Notes under the pieces: model-generated
What the model was told of the DNA's origin: nothing
Seen by the model: the letters and a program-made list of their open reading frames with translations, nothing else
Database searches by the model: none
Program-made: the position numbers and the translations under genes
DNA from: a virus
Taxonomy: Duplodnaviria > Heunggongvirae > Uroviricota > Caudoviricetes
Direction: 5' to 3' (one strand)
DNA: 33,477 nt
IMG/VR virus record: IMGVR_UViG_3300029193_000102
Coordinates: 1 to 33,477 of that record
Shown: in pieces, positions 5,402 through 26,844 of the stretch
How the letters are laid out: every line of letters begins with the position of its first letter
How positions within the stretch are numbered: position 1 is the stretch's first letter

Positions 5402-5459
5402 AAAAAGGGCGGCAGAGCAGTCACGGAGTAAAACTGATACCGCCAAACGTCACCAGAAA
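5402..5459 (-). ncRNA. dicF: DicF small RNA (53 nt at 5407..5459) with 3' stem-loop and U-tract
   Basis: Minus-strand sequence TTTCTGGTGACGTTTGGCGGTATCAGTTTTACTCCGTGACTGCTCTGCCGCCC followed by TTTTT matches recalled DicF; lies upstream of dicB as in the Qin dicB operon. Confidence 0.7.
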
Positions 5460-13206: not shown

Positions 13207-13465
13207 ATACAGCGAACGCCATTGGTTTAGTTGGATATTTACTGTGCCGGACAAAAACGGTTTGCGGGGAAATCTTAGTTAAGTAGAATAACTGCGGGTG
13301 CTTGAGGCTATCTGTCTCAGGCATGAACACCAAAAGGCAGATAGAGAAAAGCCCCAGTTAACATTACGCGTCCGGCAAGACGCTTAACATTAATCTGAGG
13401 CTCAATCTATGAACGGCAAATCTAGGTTAGCCTCTTACGTGCCGAAAGGCAAGGAGAAGCAGGCT

Positions 13466-13621
13466 ATGAAGCAGCAAAAGGCGATGTTAGTCGCCCTGAT
13501 CGTCATCTGTATTACCGTCATTGTGACGGCACTGGTAACGAGGAAAGACCTCTGCGAGGTACGAATCCGAACCGGCCAGACGGAGGTCACTGTCTTCACA
13601 GCTTACGAACCTGAGGAGTAA
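13466..13621 (+). CDS. hok: Hok/Gef-family type I toxin (HokD/RelF-like)
   Basis: 51 aa MKQQKAMLVALIVICITVIVTALVTRKDLCEVRIRTGQTEVTVFTAYEPEE, near-identical to recalled HokD; AAGGAGAAG SD 7 nt upstream. Confidence 0.8.
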   Translation: MKQQKAMLVALIVICITVIVTALVTRKDLCEVRIRTGQTEVTVFTAYEPEE

Positions 13622-16486: not shown

Positions 16487-16804
16487 GTGGTAAATTGGCG
16501 GCTGGTGGGTGTGGTGGTTGTTGCTTTCCCGTTGCTGAAAAAGAAAACGCCAGACTGTTAGCCGGGTATCAGTTATCTGGAGAAATTTTTAAATACCTCA
16601 CAATTCAGGCGGTTGACTGTTGTCTGGTTTGCGGGGAGTTTGTTAAAAGAAACTGGCATGGTGAATCCCCCTGTGCGGAGGGGCAATCAGCAACTGGTGT
16701 TTTGTCACCGACCCTTATCCTTTCTGTGCGGGTTCAGGTGCTGATACTGAACTCACCGGGAGGCACCCGGCATCATGTGCATGATGATACAGATACGCGG
16801 CTTT

Positions 16805-16830
16805 AGCCCCTCTCCGGAGGGGCTTTCTTG
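16805..16830 (+). terminator. Rho-independent terminator (plus strand)
   Basis: AGCCCCTC-TCCG-GAGGGGCT followed by TTCTTG. Confidence 0.45.
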
Positions 16831-16835
16831 TGGGC

Positions 16836-16861
16836 AAAAAAAAGCCCGAGTGGGTTCGGGC
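16836..16861 (-). terminator. Rho-independent terminator (minus strand), convergent with the previous one
   Basis: A8 run then GCCCGA-GTGGGT-TCGGGC on the plus strand, i.e. hairpin plus U-tract on the minus strand. Confidence 0.4.
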
Positions 16862-17043
16862 AACAGCATGAGATATACATTTTTATAATCGAATGGATTT
16901 TAACCAGAATTCATAAGGCTGCGCAACTGCGCGGTCTTTTTCGAATTGCGGGCTGTCGTCTCTCTTCTGCCATTGTCCTGTAACTTCCGGACTTCAGCCT
17001 GCTCCTTATCTGACTCACAATATTATCCCGGCCGGGAGGATTC

Positions 17044-20341: not shown

Positions 20342-20875
20342 ATGAACACCAAAATCAAATACGGCCTGTCGGCTGCCGTTCTGGCGCTGATTGCCGCTGG
20401 TGCGCCTGCGCCTGACATTCTCGACCAGTTTCTGGATGAAAAGGAAGGTAACCACACCACGGCATACCGTGATGGTGCGGGGATCTGGACCATCTGCCGT
20501 GGAGCCACCCGGGTGGATGGTAAGCCTGTTATTCCTGGCATGAAGCTGTCGAAGGAAAAATGCGACCGGGTTAACGCCATTGAGCGTGATAAGGCGCTGG
20601 CATGGGTGGAGAAAAACATCAGAGTGCCACTGACCGAACCCCAGAAAGCGGGGATCGCGTCATTCTGTCCGTACAACATTGGTCCCGGTAAGTGTTTCCC
20701 GTCGACGTTTTACAGACGAATTAATGCAGGTGATCGAAAAGGTGCCTGCGAAGCGATTCGCTGGTGGATTAAGGACGGTGGCAGAGACTGCCGTATTCGC
20801 TCAAATAACTGTTACGGTCAGGTATCCCGTCGTGACCAGGAGAGCGCGCTGGCGTGCTGGGGTATCGACAGATAA
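20342..20875 (+). CDS. Endolysin, lysozyme-type with N-terminal SAR (signal-anchor-release) domain
   Basis: 177 aa; N-terminal YGLSAAVLALIAAGA; catalytic E..D..T region EGNHTTAYRDGAGIWTICRGAT. Confidence 0.85.
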   Translation: MNTKIKYGLSAAVLALIAAGAPAPDILDQFLDEKEGNHTTAYRDGAGIWTICRGATRVDGKPVIPGMKLSKEKCDRVNAIERDKALAWVEKNIRVPLTEPQKAGIASFCPYNIGPGKCFPSTFYRRINAGDRKGACEAIRWWIKDGGRDCRIRSNNCYGQVSRRDQESALACWGIDR

Positions 20876-21228: not shown

Positions 21229-21360
21229 ATGCCAGACAAACTCATAACGCTGGCGAAGATCCTCTGTGTAATTGTCGGCATTTCATTTTCACTAATGCTG
21301 GTTGCTCTTTTTCTTTCCATGGCCTGGATGATGTTGTCTTCGTCGGGGCTGCTGGGGTGA
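21229..21360 (+). CDS. Hypothetical 43-aa membrane peptide
   Basis: ATG 21229 with AAGGGAGGA 7 nt upstream; highly hydrophobic. Confidence 0.3.
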
Positions 21361-21830
21361 ACATAAACCGAATGCTTTCCGCGTTTATCGTTATTCTGCT
21401 GGTGGCCTGTGGTGCGCTGTGGATGGCAACAGACCATTACCGTGATAACGCGATTACCTACAAAGCGCAGCGCGATAACAAAGCCAGAGAACTGAAGCTG
21501 GCGAACGCAACCATTACTGATATGCAGGTGCGCCAGCGCGATGTTGCTGCGCTCGATGCAAAATACTCGAGGGAATTAGCCGATGCGAGAGCTGAAAATG
21601 AAACTCTTCGCGCTGATGTTGCCGCTGGTCGTAAGCGCCTGCGGATCAACGCCACCTGCCCCGGTACCGTGCGTGAAGCCACCGGCACCTCCGGCGTGGA
21701 TAATGCAACCGGCCCCCGACTGGCAGACACCGCTGAACGGGATTATTTCATCCTCAGAGAACGGTTGATGACAATGCAGAAGCAGGTGGAAGGGGCGCAG
21801 GAATATATCCGCACTCAGTGTATTAACTAG
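21357..21830 (+). CDS. Rz: Rz i-spanin
   Basis: Strong similarity to recalled lambda Rz ([25 protein letters not shown]...DVAALDAKY...[27 protein letters not shown]); alternative start ATG 21372. Confidence 0.8.
21583..21768 (+). CDS. Rz1: Rz1 o-spanin lipoprotein, embedded in Rz in the +1 frame
   Basis: MLPLVVSAC lipobox; Pro-rich [27 protein letters not shown] matches recalled lambda Rz1. Confidence 0.75.
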
Positions 21831-21853: not shown

Positions 21854-22078
21854 ATGAAGAAATTACTGGTAACCGTAAAGCCTCTTCAGGGAACAATTCT
21901 GTTCCGTATTTTGCAGCGTGGTCGTGTTCTTGTTGAAGGTTCGTTCAGTGGTAAATGTATGCAATTACACTCCCGGACCTTTCAGGTGAATGCCACGAAT
22001 GAAGAGCTAACCGTTGAGTGTACGATGAATACCGCTAAATGCCGCATGGTATCCGCTGCATTACAGCGAGTGTGTTGA
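21854..22078 (+). CDS. Hypothetical 74-aa protein
   Basis: ATG 21854 with GGAGAA upstream. Confidence 0.35.
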   Translation: MKKLLVTVKPLQGTILFRILQRGRVLVEGSFSGKCMQLHSRTFQVNATNEELTVECTMNTAKCRMVSAALQRVC

Positions 22079-22329
22079 GCGACCTTATTATCCATGCGCG
22101 GTATTGTCGCCGTATCCCCGCATTAACAGAGACCGCAGCCCGACCGGGATACTCCTCTGCGCGAGTGTGCGGGGATAATCAAAAACGATACACACCGGGG
22201 TTTACCGCGTTAACGGAGCGCGGCGTTGTCCCCTCATAGTCGCCTGTCCGGTGCGATGGTGGAAGAAACCGGACTACATTGAAAATGATAACCATTATCA
22301 TTTTTGCGGGTCCTCCTGGTGGGGTGGGC

Positions 22330-22365
22330 CTGAACACGGGGCGGGCGGCGCGGAAAAAGGCGCAT
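22330..22365. other. Putative cos site (cosN-like) of a lambda-type packaging system
   Basis: ACGGGGCGGGCGGCGCGG resembles the recalled lambda cohesive-end region (ACGGGGCGGCGACCTCGCGGG); ~185 bp upstream of the small terminase gene; downstream cgtcatcatcat and tgtttttaat resemble lambda cosB-region sequence. Confidence 0.4.
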
Positions 22366-22536
22366 TTTTGTGATTTTATCGTCATCATCATAATAATGGT
22401 AACTTATTGTTTTTAATGTGTTTAGCATTAAAAAGATGATGATTGCGGTTGATTTTTGTTCGACATCTTTATATGGCGGCATTTCTTTACAAAAAAAGAG
22501 CCACTTTTGTTCAGCGGTTTATGTGGAGGGATGTAA

Positions 22537-23013
22537 ATGGACGGCGAGCTGAAAAATATGAAGTTAAATATTAATCAACTGGCAGCCCTTTCAGGTCTGC
22601 ACCGGCAGACTGTTGCCGCCAGAATGGCGGATGTTCCTCTTGCACCAGGCAGTAATGAAAAGAAAAAACTGTATCTCCTGACGGATTTGATTATTTCGTT
22701 GCTGGAAAAACCACCGACTTCCGAAGATGAAGAGATGAACCCACATGATCGGAAGGCATGGTATCAGTCCGAGCGCGAGCGTCTTAAATTTCAGCATGAA
22801 ACTGTTCAGCTTGTGCCTGTCAGTGATGTCAGGCGGTCCTTTTCTGTCGTGGTGAAAGCGATAGTTCAGGTACTGGAAACCTGGCCTGACCGGCTGGAAA
22901 GGGACAGAGGTTGGACCGCATCACAACTGAATGAAGTACAGATTGTGGTTGATGAGATCCGCGACACACTGGAAAAGGCAGTCATTGACTGTTGTGATGA
23001 GGCCGATATGTGA
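22537..23013 (+). CDS. Terminase small subunit
   Basis: 158 aa; GGAGGGA SD; N-terminal HTH NINQLAALSGLHRQTVAARM; immediately upstream of the large terminase gene. Confidence 0.7.
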   Translation: MDGELKNMKLNINQLAALSGLHRQTVAARMADVPLAPGSNEKKKLYLLTDLIISLLEKPPTSEDEEMNPHDRKAWYQSERERLKFQHETVQLVPVSDVRRSFSVVVKAIVQVLETWPDRLERDRGWTASQLNEVQIVVDEIRDTLEKAVIDCCDEADM

Positions 23014-25133
23014 ATCAGGTGAACGAGAGCCATAGCCGCGCATCCGATATCTGGCGCGAAGTGGCCTCGCTGTTTCGCCCGCCCAGCCGGTTACCAGTAG
23101 CGGAAGCCATCAGGCGTTATATGCGGGTACCACGGGGAGCCAATACTTCCGGTCCGTGGGAGTCATCGCTGACGCCCTATATGATTGACCCCATTAATAC
23201 ATTATCAGCCCGTGAATATGACGCGGTGGTGTTTGTGGGACCTGCGCGAACCGGGAAAACCGAAGGGCTGATTGACGGCTGGATTGTGTACGGCATCATC
23301 TGTGATCCGGCGGATATGCTGGTGGTGCAAATGACCGAGACGAAGGCGCGGGAACACTCCAGAACGCGTCTTTCCAGAACGTTTCGTCACAGCCCGGAGG
23401 TCAGTAAGCGTCTCAGTCCTTCCCGTAATGACAACAACGTCCACGATAAAATGTTTCTTGACGGCTCCTTCCTGAAGATTGGCTGGCCGTCGATCACTGT
23501 ATTTTCTTCTTCGGATTACCGTCGTGTGGCGCTGACGGATTATGACCGTTTCCCTGAAAACGTGGACGGGGAAGGGGATGCCTTCACCCTGGCATCAAAG
23601 CGTACCACCACCTTTATGTCCTCGGGGATGACCCTGGTCGAGAGTTCGCCGGGGCGGGATATCACTGACACCAAATGGCGCTGTGGCGGCGCACATGAGG
23701 CACCGCCAACAACGGGGATCCTGTCACTGTATAACCGGGGAGACCGCCGCCGGTGGTACTGGCCGTGTCCGCACTGCGGGGAATATTTTCAGCCGGTGAT
23801 GGATAACATGACCGGATACCGGAATAACCCGGATTTTGTGGCTGCCGGTCAGGCTGCCCGTCTGATGTGTCCGCATTGTCGCGGGCTGATTGCCCCTGAG
23901 CAGAAACGCGAACTGAATAACAAAGGGATCTGGCTTCGTGAAGGTGAACGGGCGGTGGCGGACGGCAGTATCACCGGAACACCACGAAATTCCAGGATTG
24001 CGTCATTCTGGATGGAGGGGCCGGCTGCGGCGTTTCAGACCTGGGAACAACTGATTTTTAAACTGCTGGCGGCAGAAGAAGAGTATGAGCGAACCGGCAG
24101 TGAAGAGACCCTGAAAGCGGTGGTGAACACCGATATCGGACGCCCCTATCTGCCCCGTTCAGCCACGGAACAGCGTAAAAGTGAACTGCTTGAACAGCGT
24201 GCCGAGCCGTTTCCCCGGCGATCTGTGCCGGATGGTGTGCGTTTTATTGAGGCAACGGTTGACGTACAGGGCGGTAAAAATCGCCGTTTTGTTGTGCAGA
24301 TCACCGGATACGGAGAGCAGGGGGAACGCTGGATTGTTGATCGCTATAACATCCGGCATTCACTGCGCTGCAGTCCCAACGGTGAAAGTCTGCCGGTTGA
24401 TCCGGCGGCATATCCGGAGGACTGGGATTTGTTGCTGACGGATGTGTTCCATAAAACATGGCCGCTGGCTTCTGATCCGGATGTGCGCATGCGTCTGATG
24501 GCCATGGCGGTGGATACGGGAGGGGAAGCCGGGGTGACAGATAACGCCTATCGTTTCTGGCGTCGTTGCCGGAGTGACGGACTGGGCAACAGGGTGTTTC
24601 TGTTCAAGGGGGATGGACTTCGCCGTGACAGGCTGATTAACCGTACCTTCCCGGATAATACCGGCAGAAGTGCCCGCCGTGCCAGAGCCAGTGGCGATGT
24701 CGCGCTGTGGCTGGTTCAGACGGATGCGTTTAAGGACCGTGTAAATAATGCCCTGTGGCGTGACACACCAGGGCCGAACTATATCCACTTTCCCGACTGG
24801 CTGGGGCGATGGTTTTACGATGAGCTGACCTATGAAGAGCGCGGCAGTGACGGAAAATGGCGAAAACCGGGCAGGGGAGCTAACGAGGCGTTTGACCTGC
24901 TGGTTTATGCGGATGCGCTTGCCGTTCTGCATGGTTACGAAAAGATCCGCTGGCCCTCCGCACCGGACTGGGCACAGCGGGAAACGTGGCTCGTCTTCCC
25001 GCAGGAGCGTTCTGGTGAAACGGTATCCCCGGAACTGACGGCCGGGGCAGAAAAACGCCGTCGCCGGAAGAAAAAACTACGGACGGAGCGTGCGGAAGAT
25101 AATCCATGGATAACATCAGGAGGCTGGTTGTGA
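23010..25133 (+). CDS. A: Terminase large subunit (lambda gpA family)
   Basis: 707 aa; ATPase motif VGPARTGKTE, CPHCGE zinc motif and nuclease-region DTGG as in lambda gpA; GTG start overlapping the small-subunit stop. Confidence 0.9.
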   Translation: MNQVNESHSRASDIWREVASLFRPPSRLPVAEAIRRYMRVPRGANTSGPWESSLTPYMIDPINTLSAREYDAVVFVGPARTGKTEGLIDGWIVYGIICDPADMLVVQMTETKAREHSRTRLSRTFRHSPEVSKRLSPSRNDNNVHDKMFLDGSFLKIGWPSITVFSSSDYRRVALTDYDRFPENVDGEGDAFTLASKRTTTFMSSGMTLVESSPGRDITDTKWRCGGAHEAPPTTGILSLYNRGDRRRWYWPCPHCGEYFQPVMDNMTGYRNNPDFVAAGQAARLMCPHCRGLIAPEQKRELNNKGIWLREGERAVADGSITGTPRNSRIASFWMEGPAAAFQTWEQLIFKLLAAEEEYERTGSEETLKAVVNTDIGRPYLPRSATEQRKSELLEQRAEPFPRRSVPDGVRFIEATVDVQGGKNRRFVVQITGYGEQGERWIVDRYNIRHSLRCSPNGESLPVDPAAYPEDWDLLLTDVFHKTWPLASDPDVRMRLMAMAVDTGGEAGVTDNAYRFWRRCRSDGLGNRVFLFKGDGLRRDRLINRTFPDNTGRSARRARASGDVALWLVQTDAFKDRVNNALWRDTPGPNYIHFPDWLGRWFYDELTYEERGSDGKWRKPGRGANEAFDLLVYADALAVLHGYEKIRWPSAPDWAQRETWLVFPQERSGETVSPELTAGAEKRRRRKKKLRTERAEDNPWITSGGWL

Positions 25134-25342
25134 GCACAGAAGAAGCCAGAGAAATGATACAGCGGTACCGTGAAGCGGAAATGGCCGTACTGGAGGGGAA
25201 GTCTGTCACCTTCAACGGACAGCAACTGACGCTGGAAAGCCTTTCTCAGATCCGCGCCGGACGTCAGGAGTGGGAACGCAGGCTTGCCGCGATGGTGAGC
25301 CGCAGGCGGGGAAAACCAGGATTTAAACTGGCGAGGTTTTAA
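25130..25342 (+). CDS. W: Head-tail joining protein W-like
   Basis: ~70 aa from GTG 25130 (AGGAGG 6 nt upstream; alternative ATG 25106); C-terminus RRRGKPGF resembles lambda gpW. Confidence 0.6.
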   Translation: MSTEEAREMIQRYREAEMAVLEGKSVTFNGQQLTLESLSQIRAGRQEWERRLAAMVSRRRGKPGFKLARF

Positions 25343-26844
25343 TGGCAATTATTGATGATGTGATAGGCGTGTTTTCCCCCGGCTGGAAAGCAGCCAGACT
25401 GCGTTCAAGGGCGTTAATCATGGCCTATGAGGCGGTGAAACCGACCCGGACACATAAAGCCCGGCGGGAAAATCGCTCTGCTGATCAGCTCAGTAAATAC
25501 GGTGCGGTTTCCCTGCGGGAGCAGGCCCGTTTTCTGGATATCAATCATGACCTGGTGATTGGTGTGTTTGACAAGCTGGAAGAGCGGGTGATTGGTGCCA
25601 GGGGAATTATTGTGGAGCCTCAGCCATTACGAAAAAACGGGGAAATGGCGGCAGAGCTGGCTGCGGATATCCGCCGGTTGTGGGCTGAGTGGTCCGTGAG
25701 TCCGGATGTGACAGGGCAGTATACCCGTCCCGTGCTTGAACGTTTACTGCTGCGGACCTGGCTGCGGGATGGTGAAGTGTTTGCGCAGATGGTCAGTGGT
25801 GCGGGAAACGGTCTGGAACGGACGGCGGGAGTGCCATTCTGGCTTGAGGCGATGGAGCCGGATTTTGTTCCCATGCGCACTGATGAATCCGCCGGACTGA
25901 ATCAGGGGGTTTTTCTTGATGAGTGGGGAAGACCGAAAAAATATCTGGTTTATAAAAATTATCCGGTCAGCGGCCGGCAGAGTGATACGAAAGAAATCGC
26001 TGCCGGAAAAATGATCCACCTGAAGTTCACTCGTCGTCTGCATCAGACGCGAGGCTCATCCATGTTATCGGGGGTGCTGATACGGATCAGTGCCCTTAAG
26101 GAGTATGAGGATGCGGAACTCACTGCGGCGCGTATTGCCGCGGCGCTGGGACTGTATATCCGTAAAGGTGACGGGCAGGACTATGAAGAGCCGGGGATCA
26201 AAGAAACCGACCGGGAAGTCCATATCACACCGGGTATTATTTATGACGATTTGCGCAAGGGCGAGGATATCGGCATGGTCAAATCAGACCGTCCCAATCC
26301 CAACCTTGAAACTTTCCGCAACGGCCAGTTGCGTGCAGTGGCAGCGGGCAGTCGTCTGAGTTTTTCCAGTGCGGCGCGTAACTATAACGGCACCTACAGT
26401 GCCCAGCGGCAGGAGCTGGTCGAGTCCACGGATGGTTACCTGATCCTGCAGGACTGTTTTATTGGCGCGGTAACCCGTCCGGTGTACCGGACATGGCTGA
26501 ATATGGTGGTTGCGGCAGGTCTGCTGAAAATTCCGGCGGATGTGGAGATGAAAACGCTATATAACGCGACGTATTCCGGTCCGGTGATGCCGTGGATCGA
26601 CCCGGTTAAGGAAGCTGAAGCCTGGAGAATTCAGATCCGGGGTGGTGCAGCGACAGAATCTGACTGGGTGCGTGCCGGCGGGCGCAATCCGGATGAGGTC
26701 AAACGTCGCCGCAAGGCTGAAATTGATGAAAACAGCAGACTGGGGCTGGTCTTTGATACTGACCCCGTCAACGACAAAGGAGGCAACAGTGCCGGAACTG
26801 AACAACAGCGTCAGCAGGCCACCGACAGCCAGCATGAAGAATAA
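25342..26844 (+). CDS. B: Portal protein (lambda gpB family)
   Basis: 500 aa, placed after W and before the protease as in lambda. Confidence 0.85.
   Translation: MAIIDDVIGVFSPGWKAARLRSRALIMAYEAVKPTRTHKARRENRSADQLSKYGAVSLREQARFLDINHDLVIGVFDKLEERVIGARGIIVEPQPLRKNGEMAAELAADIRRLWAEWSVSPDVTGQYTRPVLERLLLRTWLRDGEVFAQMVSGAGNGLERTAGVPFWLEAMEPDFVPMRTDESAGLNQGVFLDEWGRPKKYLVYKNYPVSGRQSDTKEIAAGKMIHLKFTRRLHQTRGSSMLSGVLIRISALKEYEDAELTAARIAAALGLYIRKGDGQDYEEPGIKETDREVHITPGIIYDDLRKGEDIGMVKSDRPNPNLETFRNGQLRAVAAGSRLSFSSAARNYNGTYSAQRQELVESTDGYLILQDCFIGAVTRPVYRTWLNMVVAAGLLKIPADVEMKTLYNATYSGPVMPWIDPVKEAEAWRIQIRGGAATESDWVRAGGRNPDEVKRRRKAEIDENSRLGLVFDTDPVNDKGGNSAGTEQQRQQATDSQHEE

What the first reader, a model, noticed from the sequence alone, without database searches (positions are those of the whole stretch)
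22079..22536. Structured non-coding region containing a lambda-like cos site
ACGGGGCGGGCGGCGCGG at 22335..22352 resembles the lambda cohesive-end region, and the following ~150 bp share short blocks with lambda cosB-region sequence (cgtcat..., tgtttttaat). Upstream there are long-range inverted repeats (CCCCGCA at 22117 with TGCGGGG at 22171; CCGCG-TTAACGGAG-CGCGG near 22208). Together with a gpA-type terminase this supports cos packaging with 5' overhangs; the exact nick positions are not determinable from sequence.
Basis: partly seen in the sequence, partly recalled or inferred. Interest (0 to 1): 0.4.

Follow-up and report, generated by a model that had tools for sequence, protein, structure and literature searches.

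The report
Lambda-type cos packaging site of prophage
This non-coding stretch is the cohesive-end (cos) site where a lambda-like E. coli prophage cuts and packages its DNA, an expected and ordinary feature that sits next to a separate conserved block that is not part of cos.

Summary
Window 22308-22467 has every subsite of a lambda-type cos. cosQ (GGGTCCT) is at 22308-22314. cosN reads CG|GGGCGG..., with the left nick predicted between 22338 and 22339. An A5/T5 spacer follows. The cosB has three GATGWYGA repeats in -,+,- orientation (22379-89, 22435-42, 22460-67) around an IHF-consensus site (22400-12). A DUF1441/PHROG-141 small terminase gene (22537) and a gpA-family large terminase gene (23010) lie directly downstream.

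Support comes from alignment to lambda's real ends, from relatives whose records start at the homologous base, and from about 140 related loci. In those loci the IHF site is fixed in position and strand, and cosB repeats switch together with the N-terminal 90 residues of TerS while TerL stays at least 99% identical.

Two corrections:
- The upstream inverted repeats belong to a separate 179-nt module (22096-22274) that lambda carries 1.4 kb from its cos. It is a possible RNA element.
- Overhang length is uncertain (12 nt GGGCGGGCGGCG or 10 nt), because this lineage has 10, 11 or 12 nt before the conserved CGCGG flank.

No ends were measured. This is an ordinary, unannotated member of a known kind.

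The parts
22096..22274 (+). It is not part of cos. It is a candidate structured RNA within the late transcript, and lambda has a copy at about 46,866-47,033.
   Evidence: 80% identity to lambda. Sharp boundaries with three different right flanks. 1-nt and 11-nt indels and no codon bias. Consensus fold 97.6% paired, 3 pairs with compensatory changes, 56 G.U on + against 7 on -. MFE z-score not significant. No Rfam match.
22281..22304 (.). AT-rich perfect palindrome (AAAATGATAA-cca-TTATCATTTT) immediately 5' of cosQ; matches the Fur-box consensus at 17/19 positions. Its role is unknown and it is not conserved in other cos lineages.
   Evidence: I5; 0.00 expected; DNA hairpin z = -4.3; lambda 16/19 at the same place; other lineages have other sequences there.
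22308..22314 (+). cosQ heptamer GGGTCCT (packaging-termination signal), 24 nt 5' of the predicted left nick.
   Evidence: Identical to lambda 48473-48479, which lies 23 nt from lambda's end. Present 22-24 nt from the nick in 133 of 143 related contexts. Its identity as cosQ rests on my recollection of Wieczorek & Feiss 2001; PMC4669245 says only that the 7-bp cosQ is highly conserved.
22337..22352 (.). cosN nicking site, CG|GGGCGGGCGGCG|CG. Top-strand nick predicted between 22338 and 22339. The 5' overhang is 22339-22350 if 12 nt, or 22339-22348 if the right nick is set by the conserved CGCGG flank.
   Evidence: Alignment with lambda ends, the cdtI record start and the LLS annotated (inferred) overhang. 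Position 6 is G, giving GGGCGG at 1-6, in 141 of 143 contexts; GGGCG and the 5' CG flank were fixed by the search pattern. Spacer polymorphism of 10/11/12 nt. No physical ends were available.
22351..22378 (.). Spacer between cosN and cosB (equivalent in position to lambda I2), with the near-palindromic A5/T5 tract AAAAAGGCGCATTTTT at 22354-22369.
   Evidence: CGCGGAAAAAGGCNNNTTTTT is shared by at least five TerS/cosB classes. A role in termination is inferred from lambda I2 (PMC4669245).
22379..22389 (-). R3-like small-terminase binding repeat (overlapping GATGACGA and GATGATGA on the - strand), at bp 41-51 from the left end.
   Evidence: The repeat changes class together with the TerS N-terminus.
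22400..22412 (-). IHF-consensus site (AAACAATAAGTTA; 1 mismatch to WATCAANNNNTTR), homologous to lambda I1 (TAACTTAATGTTT).
   Evidence: In 112 of 112 related contexts the best consensus match is on the - strand at +48 to +51 from CGCGG, and 83 are perfect. Within the window alone the consensus is not enriched (17 found, 27 expected).
22435..22442 (+). R2-like repeat GATGATGA, inverted relative to R3 and R1.
   Evidence: (I1, I9).
22460..22467 (-). R1-like repeat (GATGTCGA on the - strand), preceded by the conserved TTGaTTTTTGTTC linker.
22537..23013 (+). Small terminase subunit gene (158 aa; Pfam DUF1441, PHROG 141). The N-terminal ~60 residues are predicted to form a helix-turn-helix with flanking strands.
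   Evidence: Model pLDDT 80. Best fold matches are viral TerS DNA-binding domains, including gpNu1 1J9I (prob 0.93, rmsd 2.9 A, but E = 0.3). No BLASTP similarity to gpNu1; weak hhalign match of residues 9-58 to Nu1 2-53.
23010..25133 (+). Large terminase subunit gene (707 aa), gpA family: ATPase and endonuclease domains.
   Evidence: Pfam GpA_ATPase 2e-81 and GpA_nuclease 6e-84. 24% identity to lambda gpA over the full length, E = 6e-19.

Best explanation
Window 22308-22467 is the cos site of a lambdoid E. coli prophage related to VT1-Sakai and long-tailed Stx phages. It is proposed to work as lambda's does. During lytic growth the small terminase binds three short repeats in cosB (R3 22379-89, R2 22435-42, R1 22460-67). 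Host IHF bends the DNA at 22400-12, bringing the inverted R3 and R2 together. The gpA-type large terminase is thereby positioned on cosN. It nicks the top strand between 22338 and 22339 and the bottom strand about 12 nt to the right (possibly 10 nt), leaving a G-rich 5' overhang. DNA is then packaged rightwards, with the terminase genes entering first. At the next cos on the concatemer, cosQ (22308-14), cosN and the A/T-tract spacer signal the terminating cut. Shown here: sequence homology, subsite order, spacing and orientation, gene context, and covariation of cosB with TerS. Inferred: protein binding, nicking, overhang polarity and length, and IHF use. The upstream block 22096-22274, which holds the long-range inverted repeats, is a different element and not part of this mechanism.
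For: Gene context is Rz (21357-21830), then the non-coding region, then TerS (DUF1441/PHROG 141), gpA-family TerL and a lambda-family portal. The cosQ-to-cosN segment aligns with lambda's real right and left ends, with ACG|GGGCGG in register. The cdtI record begins at the homologous G, and phage LLS annotates the homologous 12 nt as the 5' overhang, although that is inferred rather than measured. In 143 related contexts GGGTCCT lies 22-24 nt 5' of the nick in 133, and overhang position 6 is G (GGGCGG at 1-6) in 141. These match the criteria for lambda-like cos sites in PMC4669245. In cosB, four GATGWYGA hits fall within 89 bp in -,-,+,- orientation. An IHF consensus sits at a fixed position and strand in 112 of 112 contexts. 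TerS classes A, B and C differ in residues 1-90. Residues 91-158 are identical between A and B and nearly so in C. TerL stays at least 99.3% identical between classes A and B (87.7% in the class C locus L033). Each class has its own cosB repeats. The TerS N-terminus is modelled as an HTH whose best structural matches include the gpNu1 DNA-binding domain. Sp15/VT1-Sakai, with the same cos (92.6% identity) and TerS (96.8%), has an intact terminase and gives DNase-resistant particle DNA after induction.
Against: No virion ends were measured for this phage or for any close relative found. The LLS and mEp213 overhangs are inferences, and the basis for the cdtI record start was not checked. TerS has no detectable sequence similarity to gpNu1, and the fold matches have weak E-values (0.06-0.3). 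TerL is only 24% identical to gpA. The IHF consensus is not enriched in the window by itself. The spacer before the conserved CGCGG flank is 10 nt here against 12 in most relatives, and 10 or 11 nt next to TerLs at least 99.3% identical. So the CG-flank rule and a fixed 12-nt stagger cannot both hold across this lineage. A related terminase (Cr-LKS3) makes a 9-nt overhang. The loci were collected with cos-derived search patterns, so some conservation figures are inflated by ascertainment. Sp15 packaging could have been complemented by other prophages.
Confidence: 0.9

Rival explanations
1. The site is a cos relic: the sequence descends from a cos site but is no longer cut, because the prophage is defective.
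For: Many lambdoid prophages in E. coli are defective, and Sp15, which carries this cos type, has morphogenesis defects. The 10-nt spacer departs from the 12 nt seen in most relatives. The preceding ORF (21854-22075) is a fragment of a longer family.
Against: All subsites are intact. TerS, TerL and portal are full-length with strong family matches. The same 10-nt cosN accompanies full-length TerLs at least 99.3% identical in 24 loci and two TerS classes, which looks like maintenance rather than decay. Sp15 DNA is found in particles.
Confidence: 0.07
2. The conserved blocks are protein-coding: small ORFs across the region (for example 22279-22413, 22039-22236) encode real proteins, and that explains the conservation.
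For: PHROG families match these ORFs: phrog_5188 at E = 1e-20, and phrog_6954 'Rz-like spanin' at 5e-13. Some phage records annotate hypothetical proteins or 'Rz-like spanin' there.
Against: Substitutions show no third-position bias (17/16/13 and 9/14/11), and clades differ by 1-nt and 11-nt indels. ORF 22279-22413 starts with TTG and spans cosQ, cosN and R3, so it would be severed in virion DNA. RefSeq annotates nothing in most genomes. PHROG families are built from predicted ORFs, so conserved non-coding DNA can seed them (inference).
Confidence: 0.03
3. The phage packages by a headful (pac) mechanism and the GC-rich motif is incidental.
For: None specific. It remains only because no ends were measured.
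Against: TerL is gpA-family, the class associated with 5' cohesive ends. cosQ, cosN and cosB are conserved in order and spacing. The composite motif is unique in the window.
Confidence: 0.02
4. The whole 22079-22536 region is one structured unit, so the upstream inverted repeats are a functional part of cos.
For: In this window the module abuts the palindrome and cosQ, and the same arrangement occurs in several related loci.
Against: The same module occurs with two other right flanks unrelated to cos, and in lambda it lies about 1.4 kb from cos. More than 300 lambdoid phages, including 933W types with different packaging genes, share its 3' part. Most cos lineages with the same cosQ and cosN lack it.
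Confidence: 0.03

Closest known systems
Bacteriophage lambda cos (cosQ-cosN-I2-cosB with R3-I1-R2-R1; gpNu1/gpA terminase)
   Same: Same subsite order. cosQ heptamer is identical. The ACG|GGGCGG left half of cosN is identical. CG follows a 12-nt stagger. An IHF-type site homologous to I1 lies between inverted repeats, with a third repeat in R3 orientation. Position is between the lysis genes and the small terminase gene. TerL is gpA-family.
   Different: Overhang positions 7-12 differ at 5 of 6 positions if the overhang is 12 nt. cosQ is 24 rather than 23 nt from the nick. R3 and I1 lie about 9-12 bp closer to cosN. The repeat sequence is unrelated to lambda's R sites. TerS shows no sequence similarity to gpNu1, and TerL is only 24% identical to gpA.
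Phage 21 versus lambda packaging specificity (cosB and TerS N-terminal domain exchanged as a unit)
   Same: Natural chimeras here keep TerL and TerS residues 91-158 while exchanging TerS residues 1-90 together with cosB. This is the arrangement described for lambda-21 hybrids (PMC9026076).
   Different: It was seen only as sequence mosaicism among prophages. Specificity was not tested. The protein family is different (DUF1441).
Putative cos sites of DUF1441-TerS lambdoid phages: mEp213/LLS, cdtI, mEp460, Gifsy-2, Fels-1
   Same: Same TerS family (37-59% identity). Same cosQ...CACG|GGGCGG junction, CGCGGAAAAAGG right flank, IHF site and repeat layout.
   Different: Those have 12 nt before CGCGG (GGGCGGCGCGCT, GGGCGGGAGCGT/G), whereas the window lineage has 10 or 11. 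The cosB repeat class differs. Their overhangs are also inferred rather than measured.
Cyanophage Cr-LKS3 cos
   Same: Related TerS (33% identity) and a lambda-like TerL. 5' extension beginning GGGC with CG flanks on both sides.
   Different: Its cohesive end is reported as 9 nt, which shows that stagger length is not fixed in this wider group. The host and genome are very distant.

Membership tests
Lambda-like cos site (criteria of Feiss et al., PMC4669245) | A gpA-family large terminase encoded next to the site | tested here: met
   Pfam GpA_ATPase 2e-81 and GpA_nuclease 6e-84. 24% identity to lambda gpA over the full length, E = 6e-19.
Lambda-like cos site (criteria of Feiss et al., PMC4669245) | Conserved 7-bp cosQ about 23 nt upstream of the nick | tested here: met
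   GGGTCCT at 22308-22314, 24 nt from the predicted nick; identical to lambda 48473-48479. The heptamer's identity as cosQ is from my own knowledge.
Lambda-like cos site (criteria of Feiss et al., PMC4669245) | cosN with conserved left half (overhang positions 1-6) and 5'-CG-3' flanking both nicks; variation confined to positions 7-12 | tested here: met
   CG|GGGCGG GCGGCG|CG at 22337-22352. Positions 1-6 are identical to lambda, and all 5 differences fall in positions 7-12. A 10-nt reading also leaves a CG flank.
Lambda-like cos site (criteria of Feiss et al., PMC4669245) | 12-nt 5'-protruding cohesive ends on virion DNA | not testable with these tools
   No physical ends were found in phage records, IMG/VR or metagenome contigs. 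The spacer polymorphism of 10/11/12 nt leaves the length open.
Lambda-like cos site (criteria of Feiss et al., PMC4669245) | Partial two-fold rotational symmetry of cosN | tested here: inconclusive
   By my own count on the sequence, the 16-mer CGGGGCGGGCGGCGCG matches its reverse complement at 10 of 16 positions, the same as lambda's 16-mer. Such symmetry arises easily in a G/C repeat.
Lambda-like cos site (criteria of Feiss et al., PMC4669245) | Complex cosB: three TerS-binding repeats with R2 inverted relative to R3 and R1 | tested here: met
   GATGWYGA at 22379/22382 (-), 22435 (+) and 22460 (-). The repeats co-vary with the TerS N-terminal class. Binding itself was not tested.
Lambda-like cos site (criteria of Feiss et al., PMC4669245) | IHF site (I1) between R3 and R2 | tested here: met
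   AAACAATAAGTTA at 22400-22412 (-), homologous to lambda I1. Position and strand are fixed in 112 of 112 related contexts. IHF binding is not testable here.
gpNu1-type small terminase | N-terminal winged helix-turn-helix DNA-binding domain homologous to gpNu1 | tested here: inconclusive
   No BLASTP similarity. hhalign E = 0.025, probability 2%. The model (pLDDT 80) has a beta-HTH-beta-alpha N-terminus. The top fold hits are viral TerS domains: 7LW0 (prob 1.0) and gpNu1 1J9I (prob 0.93, rmsd 2.9 A), but no hit reaches E <= 0.001.
Any Rfam RNA family (for the upstream module 22096-22274) | Covariance-model match at or near the gathering score | tested here: not met
   No hit at gathering thresholds. 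The best permissive hits are far below threshold: PrrF 23 bits against 90, Twister-P5 13 against 37.6.
Fur box (for the palindrome 22281-22299) | Match to the 19-bp consensus GATAATGATAATCATTATC, and Fur binding | tested here: inconclusive
   17 of 19 positions match with 0.00 expected by chance, and lambda has 16 of 19 at the same place. The consensus is from my own knowledge. Binding is not testable. No promoter was found there, and other cos lineages lack the palindrome.

The most novel reading that the evidence does not exclude
The 179-nt block at 22096-22274 may be an undescribed, conserved cis-acting RNA structure carried on the late transcripts of many lambdoid phages. It travels as a discrete module independently of the packaging genes. 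A second, smaller possibility is that this terminase lineage does not make a fixed 12-nt stagger, because TerLs at least 99.3% identical sit beside cosN spacers of 10 and 11 nt.
Probability: 0.3. Interest if true: 0.5.

Novelty: new member of a known kind. Interest (0 to 1): 0.22.

Why it matters
The practical value is modest:
- It supplies an annotation that RefSeq and the Stx-phage records lack, for a site present in hundreds of E. coli genomes.
- It predicts the genome ends of a group of long-tailed Stx and Stx-like phages.
- It documents natural exchange of cosB with the TerS DNA-binding half around a constant TerL. That exchange bears on which prophages and satellites in one cell can package each other's DNA.

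The spacer-length polymorphism in cosN gives a simple natural test of whether nick spacing is set by the enzyme or by flanking sequence. The upstream module is a cheap candidate for a new phage RNA motif that could be tested in lambda itself.

Tried and rejected
- **Rfam:** scans at gathering and permissive thresholds found no family in 22079-22536.
- **Records with termini at the site:** the 12 phage records that share the right half are prophage-style deposits. The mEp460 record starts at the TerS ATG, and mEp460_4F5 is linearised 5 nt from the nick.
- **Literature searches by sequence:** the window overhang, the relatives' overhangs and the upstream module gave only the LLS paper, whose overhang is inferred. 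Vahanian et al. 2017, the survey of cosN variation, is not held.
- **Contigs ending at physical termini:** scans of IMG/VR and metagenomes gave nothing decisive. L262 ends exactly at ...GGGCGGGCGG, but it is an isolate assembly in which a break at a repeat divergence point explains this equally well.
- **IHF consensus as a stand-alone statistic:** not enriched in the window. Only its position and its conservation across loci carry weight.
- **Folding energy of the upstream module:** not significant on either strand.
- **Promoter and terminator scan:** nothing at the palindrome or cos.
- **Single-sequence structure model of TerS:** unusable at pLDDT 55, so it was redone with 46 homologues.
- **Sequence-profile search of PDB with the TerS family:** no terminase hit.
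- **Fur box plus cos in the literature:** nothing found.

Full report
**Context.** The window is a lambdoid E. coli prophage of the VT1-Sakai / long-tailed Stx-phage type. Upstream of the finding lie a lysozyme gene (20342-20875) and Rz (21357-21830). A 74-aa ORF (21854-22075) follows; it is only a fragment of a 291-position PHROG family of unknown function. Downstream lie a 158-aa DUF1441 / PHROG-141 'terminase small subunit' (22537-23013), a 707-aa gpA-family large terminase (23010-25133) and a lambda-family portal (25342-26844). The finding therefore occupies the place where lambda has cos: between the lysis cassette and the small terminase gene. The 458-bp region is 93-95% identical to unannotated stretches of Stx2a phages and VT1-Sakai. 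At least part of it occurs in 2005 of 5426 complete E. coli genomes, where RefSeq annotates nothing or a 'hypothetical protein'.

**Checking the observation.** The cos-like part is far beyond chance. GGGTCCT-N22-CGGGGCGG occurs once in the window, with 0.04 expected.

**Homology to real cohesive ends.** I fetched both ends of lambda and joined them. From the AT-rich palindrome through GGGTCCT to ACG|GGGCGG, the window aligns in register with lambda's right end and the first six bases of its left end. The large terminase is only 24% identical to gpA, and the small subunit has no BLASTP similarity to gpNu1. [quoted passage not shown]

**Relatives with the same TerS family.** A tblastn search with TerS found 58 phage records.
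- The phage cdtI record begins exactly at the homologous G (GGGCGGGAGCGT|CGCGG) and ends ...GGGTCCT...CCTGCCACG.
- Phage LLS annotates the homologous GGGCGGCGCGCT as a '5' extended single-strand cohesive site'.
- The LLS paper states that this overhang is inferred by analogy with the putative mEp213 cos and was not measured. I count it as concordant opinion, not as data.

**Published criteria.** Feiss et al. (PMC4669245) define lambda-like cos sites by these features:
- 12-nt 5' extensions;
- conservation of overhang positions 1-6 and of the CG dinucleotides flanking both nicks, with free variation at positions 7-12;
- an essentially invariant 7-bp cosQ;
- in 'complex' cosBs, three TerS-binding repeats with R2 inverted relative to R3 and R1, and an IHF site between R3 and R2.

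The window reads CG|GGGCGG GCGGCG|CG at 22337-22352. Positions 1-6 equal lambda's, all five differences fall in positions 7-12, and CG flanks both sides. GGGTCCT at 22308-22314 equals lambda 48473-48479. Equating that heptamer with cosQ rests on my recollection of Wieczorek & Feiss 2001.

**Comparative survey.** I used the conserved right flank CGCGGAAAAAGGCNNNTTTTT, and later a lineage-specific left-side pattern, to collect about 200 loci from IMG/VR and metagenomes. In 143 distinct contexts GGGTCCT lies 22-24 nt from the nick in 133, and overhang position 6 is G (GGGCGG at 1-6) in 141. The search patterns fixed GGGCG and the left CG flank, so those are not independent observations.

**cosB.**
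- In the window, GATGWYGA occurs at 22379 and 22382 (-), 22435 (+) and 22460 (-). That is four hits in 89 bp against 14 in the remaining ~33 kb, in the R3(-), R2(+), R1(-) pattern expected of a complex cosB.
- Between R3 and R2 lies AAACAATAAGTTA (22400-22412, - strand). It has one mismatch to the IHF consensus WATCAANNNNTTR and is homologous to lambda's I1 block.
- Within the window alone that consensus is not enriched (17 found, 27 expected).
- Across 112 distinct related cos contexts, the best match is always on the - strand at +48 to +51 from CGCGG. It is perfect in 83 and has one mismatch in 20.
- The strongest evidence is a natural specificity swap. TerLs at least 99.3% identical to the window's are paired with two TerS classes, A and B. 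These are 100% identical from residue 91 to the C-terminus but only about 60% identical in residues 1-90, and each class has its own repeat set.
- Class A (window) has GATGATGA/GATGTCGA repeats. Class B has GGTGATGG/AGTGTCGA/AGTGATGA repeats.
- A third, mEp460-like N-terminus with its own repeats is fused to nearly the same C-terminal half.
- This mirrors the lambda/21 situation, where the N-terminal DNA-binding half of TerS and cosB determine specificity and the C-terminal half binds TerL (PMC9026076).

**TerS fold.** With 46 homologues, AlphaFold gives pLDDT 80 and a beta-alpha-alpha-loop-beta-alpha N-terminus. The best Foldseek hits to the PDB are viral small-terminase DNA-binding domains and MerR-type regulators. 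They include gpNu1 1J9I (probability 0.93, rmsd 2.9 A over 53 columns) and the lambda TerS-RppC complex. No hit reaches E <= 0.001, and hhalign to gpNu1 is weak. I therefore treat 'works like gpNu1' as likely and 'is a gpNu1 homologue' as unproven.

**Nick positions.** The left nick is fixed by homology at 22338|22339. The right nick is uncertain.
- Most relatives have 12 nt between the left nick and a conserved CGCGG. The window's sub-lineage has 10 nt (GGGCGGGCGG), and close relatives have 11 (GGGCGGGCGGG).
- Counts over 136 distinct contexts are 90, 35 and 11 for 12, 10 and 11 nt. These counts are biased by my patterns.
- TerLs at least 99.3% identical sit beside both the 10-nt spacer (41 loci) and the 11-nt spacer (9 loci).
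- If the stagger is a fixed 12 nt, the window's overhang is GGGCGGGCGGCG and still has a CG flank. The 11-nt variants would then have a GC flank.
- If the right nick is set by the CGCGG flank, the overhangs are 10 and 11 nt.
- A related terminase (Cr-LKS3) is reported to make a 9-nt overhang, so a length other than 12 is not excluded.
- My estimate is about 55% for 12 nt, 35% for 10 nt and 10% for another length.
- No contig in IMG/VR or the metagenome collection gave a convincing physical end.

**Function in vivo.** Sp15 (VT1-Sakai) carries this cos at 92.6% identity and TerS at 96.8%. It encodes an intact terminase and yields DNase-resistant particle DNA after mitomycin C. The authors note that other prophages may complement it (PMC2669165).

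**The upstream 'structured' part is a different element.**
- The block 22096-22274 contains the perfect 10-nt inverted repeat 22113-22122 / 22168-22177.
- It is 80% identical to lambda at about 46,885-46,981, with its 3' end at 47,033. That is about 1.4 kb from lambda's cos, between bor and lambdap78.
- It has sharp boundaries, several left flanks and three different right flanks, only one of which leads into cosQ.
- Its 3' part is shared by more than 300 lambdoid phages, including 933W types with other packaging genes.
- It is non-coding: clades differ by 1-nt and 11-nt indels, and substitutions show no codon-position bias.
- Folding energy is not significant.
- A consensus fold is 97.6% paired across 18 distinct sequences, with three pairs showing compensatory double changes. 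The slid controls drop to 30-55% paired.
- Substitutions produce 56 G.U cells on the + strand against 7 on the - strand. An independent fold of the reverse complement is less stable (-21 against -37 kcal/mol; with ribosum scoring -74.6 against -79.7).
- This amounts to moderate evidence for an RNA structure in the sense of the late transcript. It rests on only about three clades and has no Rfam counterpart and no literature.

**The palindrome.** Between the module and cosQ lies a perfect AT-rich palindrome (22282-22291 / 22295-22304). It matches the Fur-box consensus at 17 of 19 positions with 0.00 expected, and lambda has 16 of 19 at the same place. Other cos lineages have terminator-like or other sequences there. 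No promoter was detected and no paper connects Fur to cos. I record it as unexplained.

**Verdict.** The inverted repeats it cited belong to a neighbouring module, not to cos. As a cos site this is an expected, ordinary feature, and I file it as a new, unannotated member of a known kind. The open points are the overhang length and the nature of the upstream module.

Noticed in passing
window 22096-22274 (lambda NC_001416 ~46,866-47,033): A discrete 179-nt conserved non-coding module of lambdoid phages with sharp boundaries and three alternative right flanks. There is moderate covariation and G.U-asymmetry evidence for a + strand RNA structure, no Rfam family and no literature.
   Followed up: partly
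window 22281-22304; lambda 48447-48465: A perfect AT-rich palindrome just 5' of cosQ matches the Fur-box consensus at 17/19 positions (lambda 16/19), with 0.00 expected by chance. It is absent from other cos lineages. No promoter was detected and no published link between Fur and cos was found.
   Followed up: partly
window 22339-22353 and loci L021, L106, L260, L270, L279, L283 and others: Length polymorphism in the right half of cosN: 10, 11 or 12 nt between the left nick and the conserved CGCGG. The 10-nt and 11-nt forms lie beside TerLs at least 99.3% identical.
   Followed up: partly
window 22537-23013 versus L107, L264, L033: Natural chimeric small terminases. Residues 91-158 are identical between classes A and B and nearly so in the mEp460-like class; residues 1-90 fall in three diverged classes. 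Each class is linked to its own cosB repeats. TerL stays at least 99% identical between classes A and B (87.7% in L033).
   Followed up: yes
window 22279-22413 and 22039-22236: PHROG families match ORFs lying on conserved non-coding DNA: phrog_5188, and phrog_6954 'Rz-like spanin'. One ORF spans cosQ-cosN-R3. These are probably spurious ORF families that propagate misannotation, such as 'Rz-like spanin' features in some Stx phage records.
   Followed up: partly
loci L018, L019, L023, L027, L262, L303; L097, L099, L124, L031: Some contigs carry two cos sites; in L023 they are inverted and 285 nt apart. In 37 of 114 cos loci no DUF1441 TerS was detected within 330 nt downstream; several have a terminator-like sequence there, and some have a variant cosQ (GGTACTC). 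These may be satellite- or PICI-like elements using this cos type.
   Followed up: no
L005/L006 (LR595868.1, mEp460_4F5) versus L003 (NC_019716, mEp460): The mEp460_4F5 record is linearised 5 nt 5' of the predicted nick, and its cosN is 3 nt shorter (GGGCGGGAG+CGCGG against GGGCGGGAGCGG+CGCGG). This may be an assembly artefact at the cohesive ends.
   Followed up: no
window 16627-16891, 13296-13471, 5407-5458, 892-978: Rfam gathering-level hits elsewhere in the window: STnc100 (16627-16835, +) abutting AsxR (16839-16891, -), sok (13296-13471, +), DicF (5407-5458, -) and a tRNA (892-978, +).
   Followed up: no
window 21854-22075: The 74-aa ORF between Rz and the non-coding region matches only positions 100-171 of a 291-position PHROG family (phrog_2571, unknown function). 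It is probably a gene fragment.
   Followed up: no
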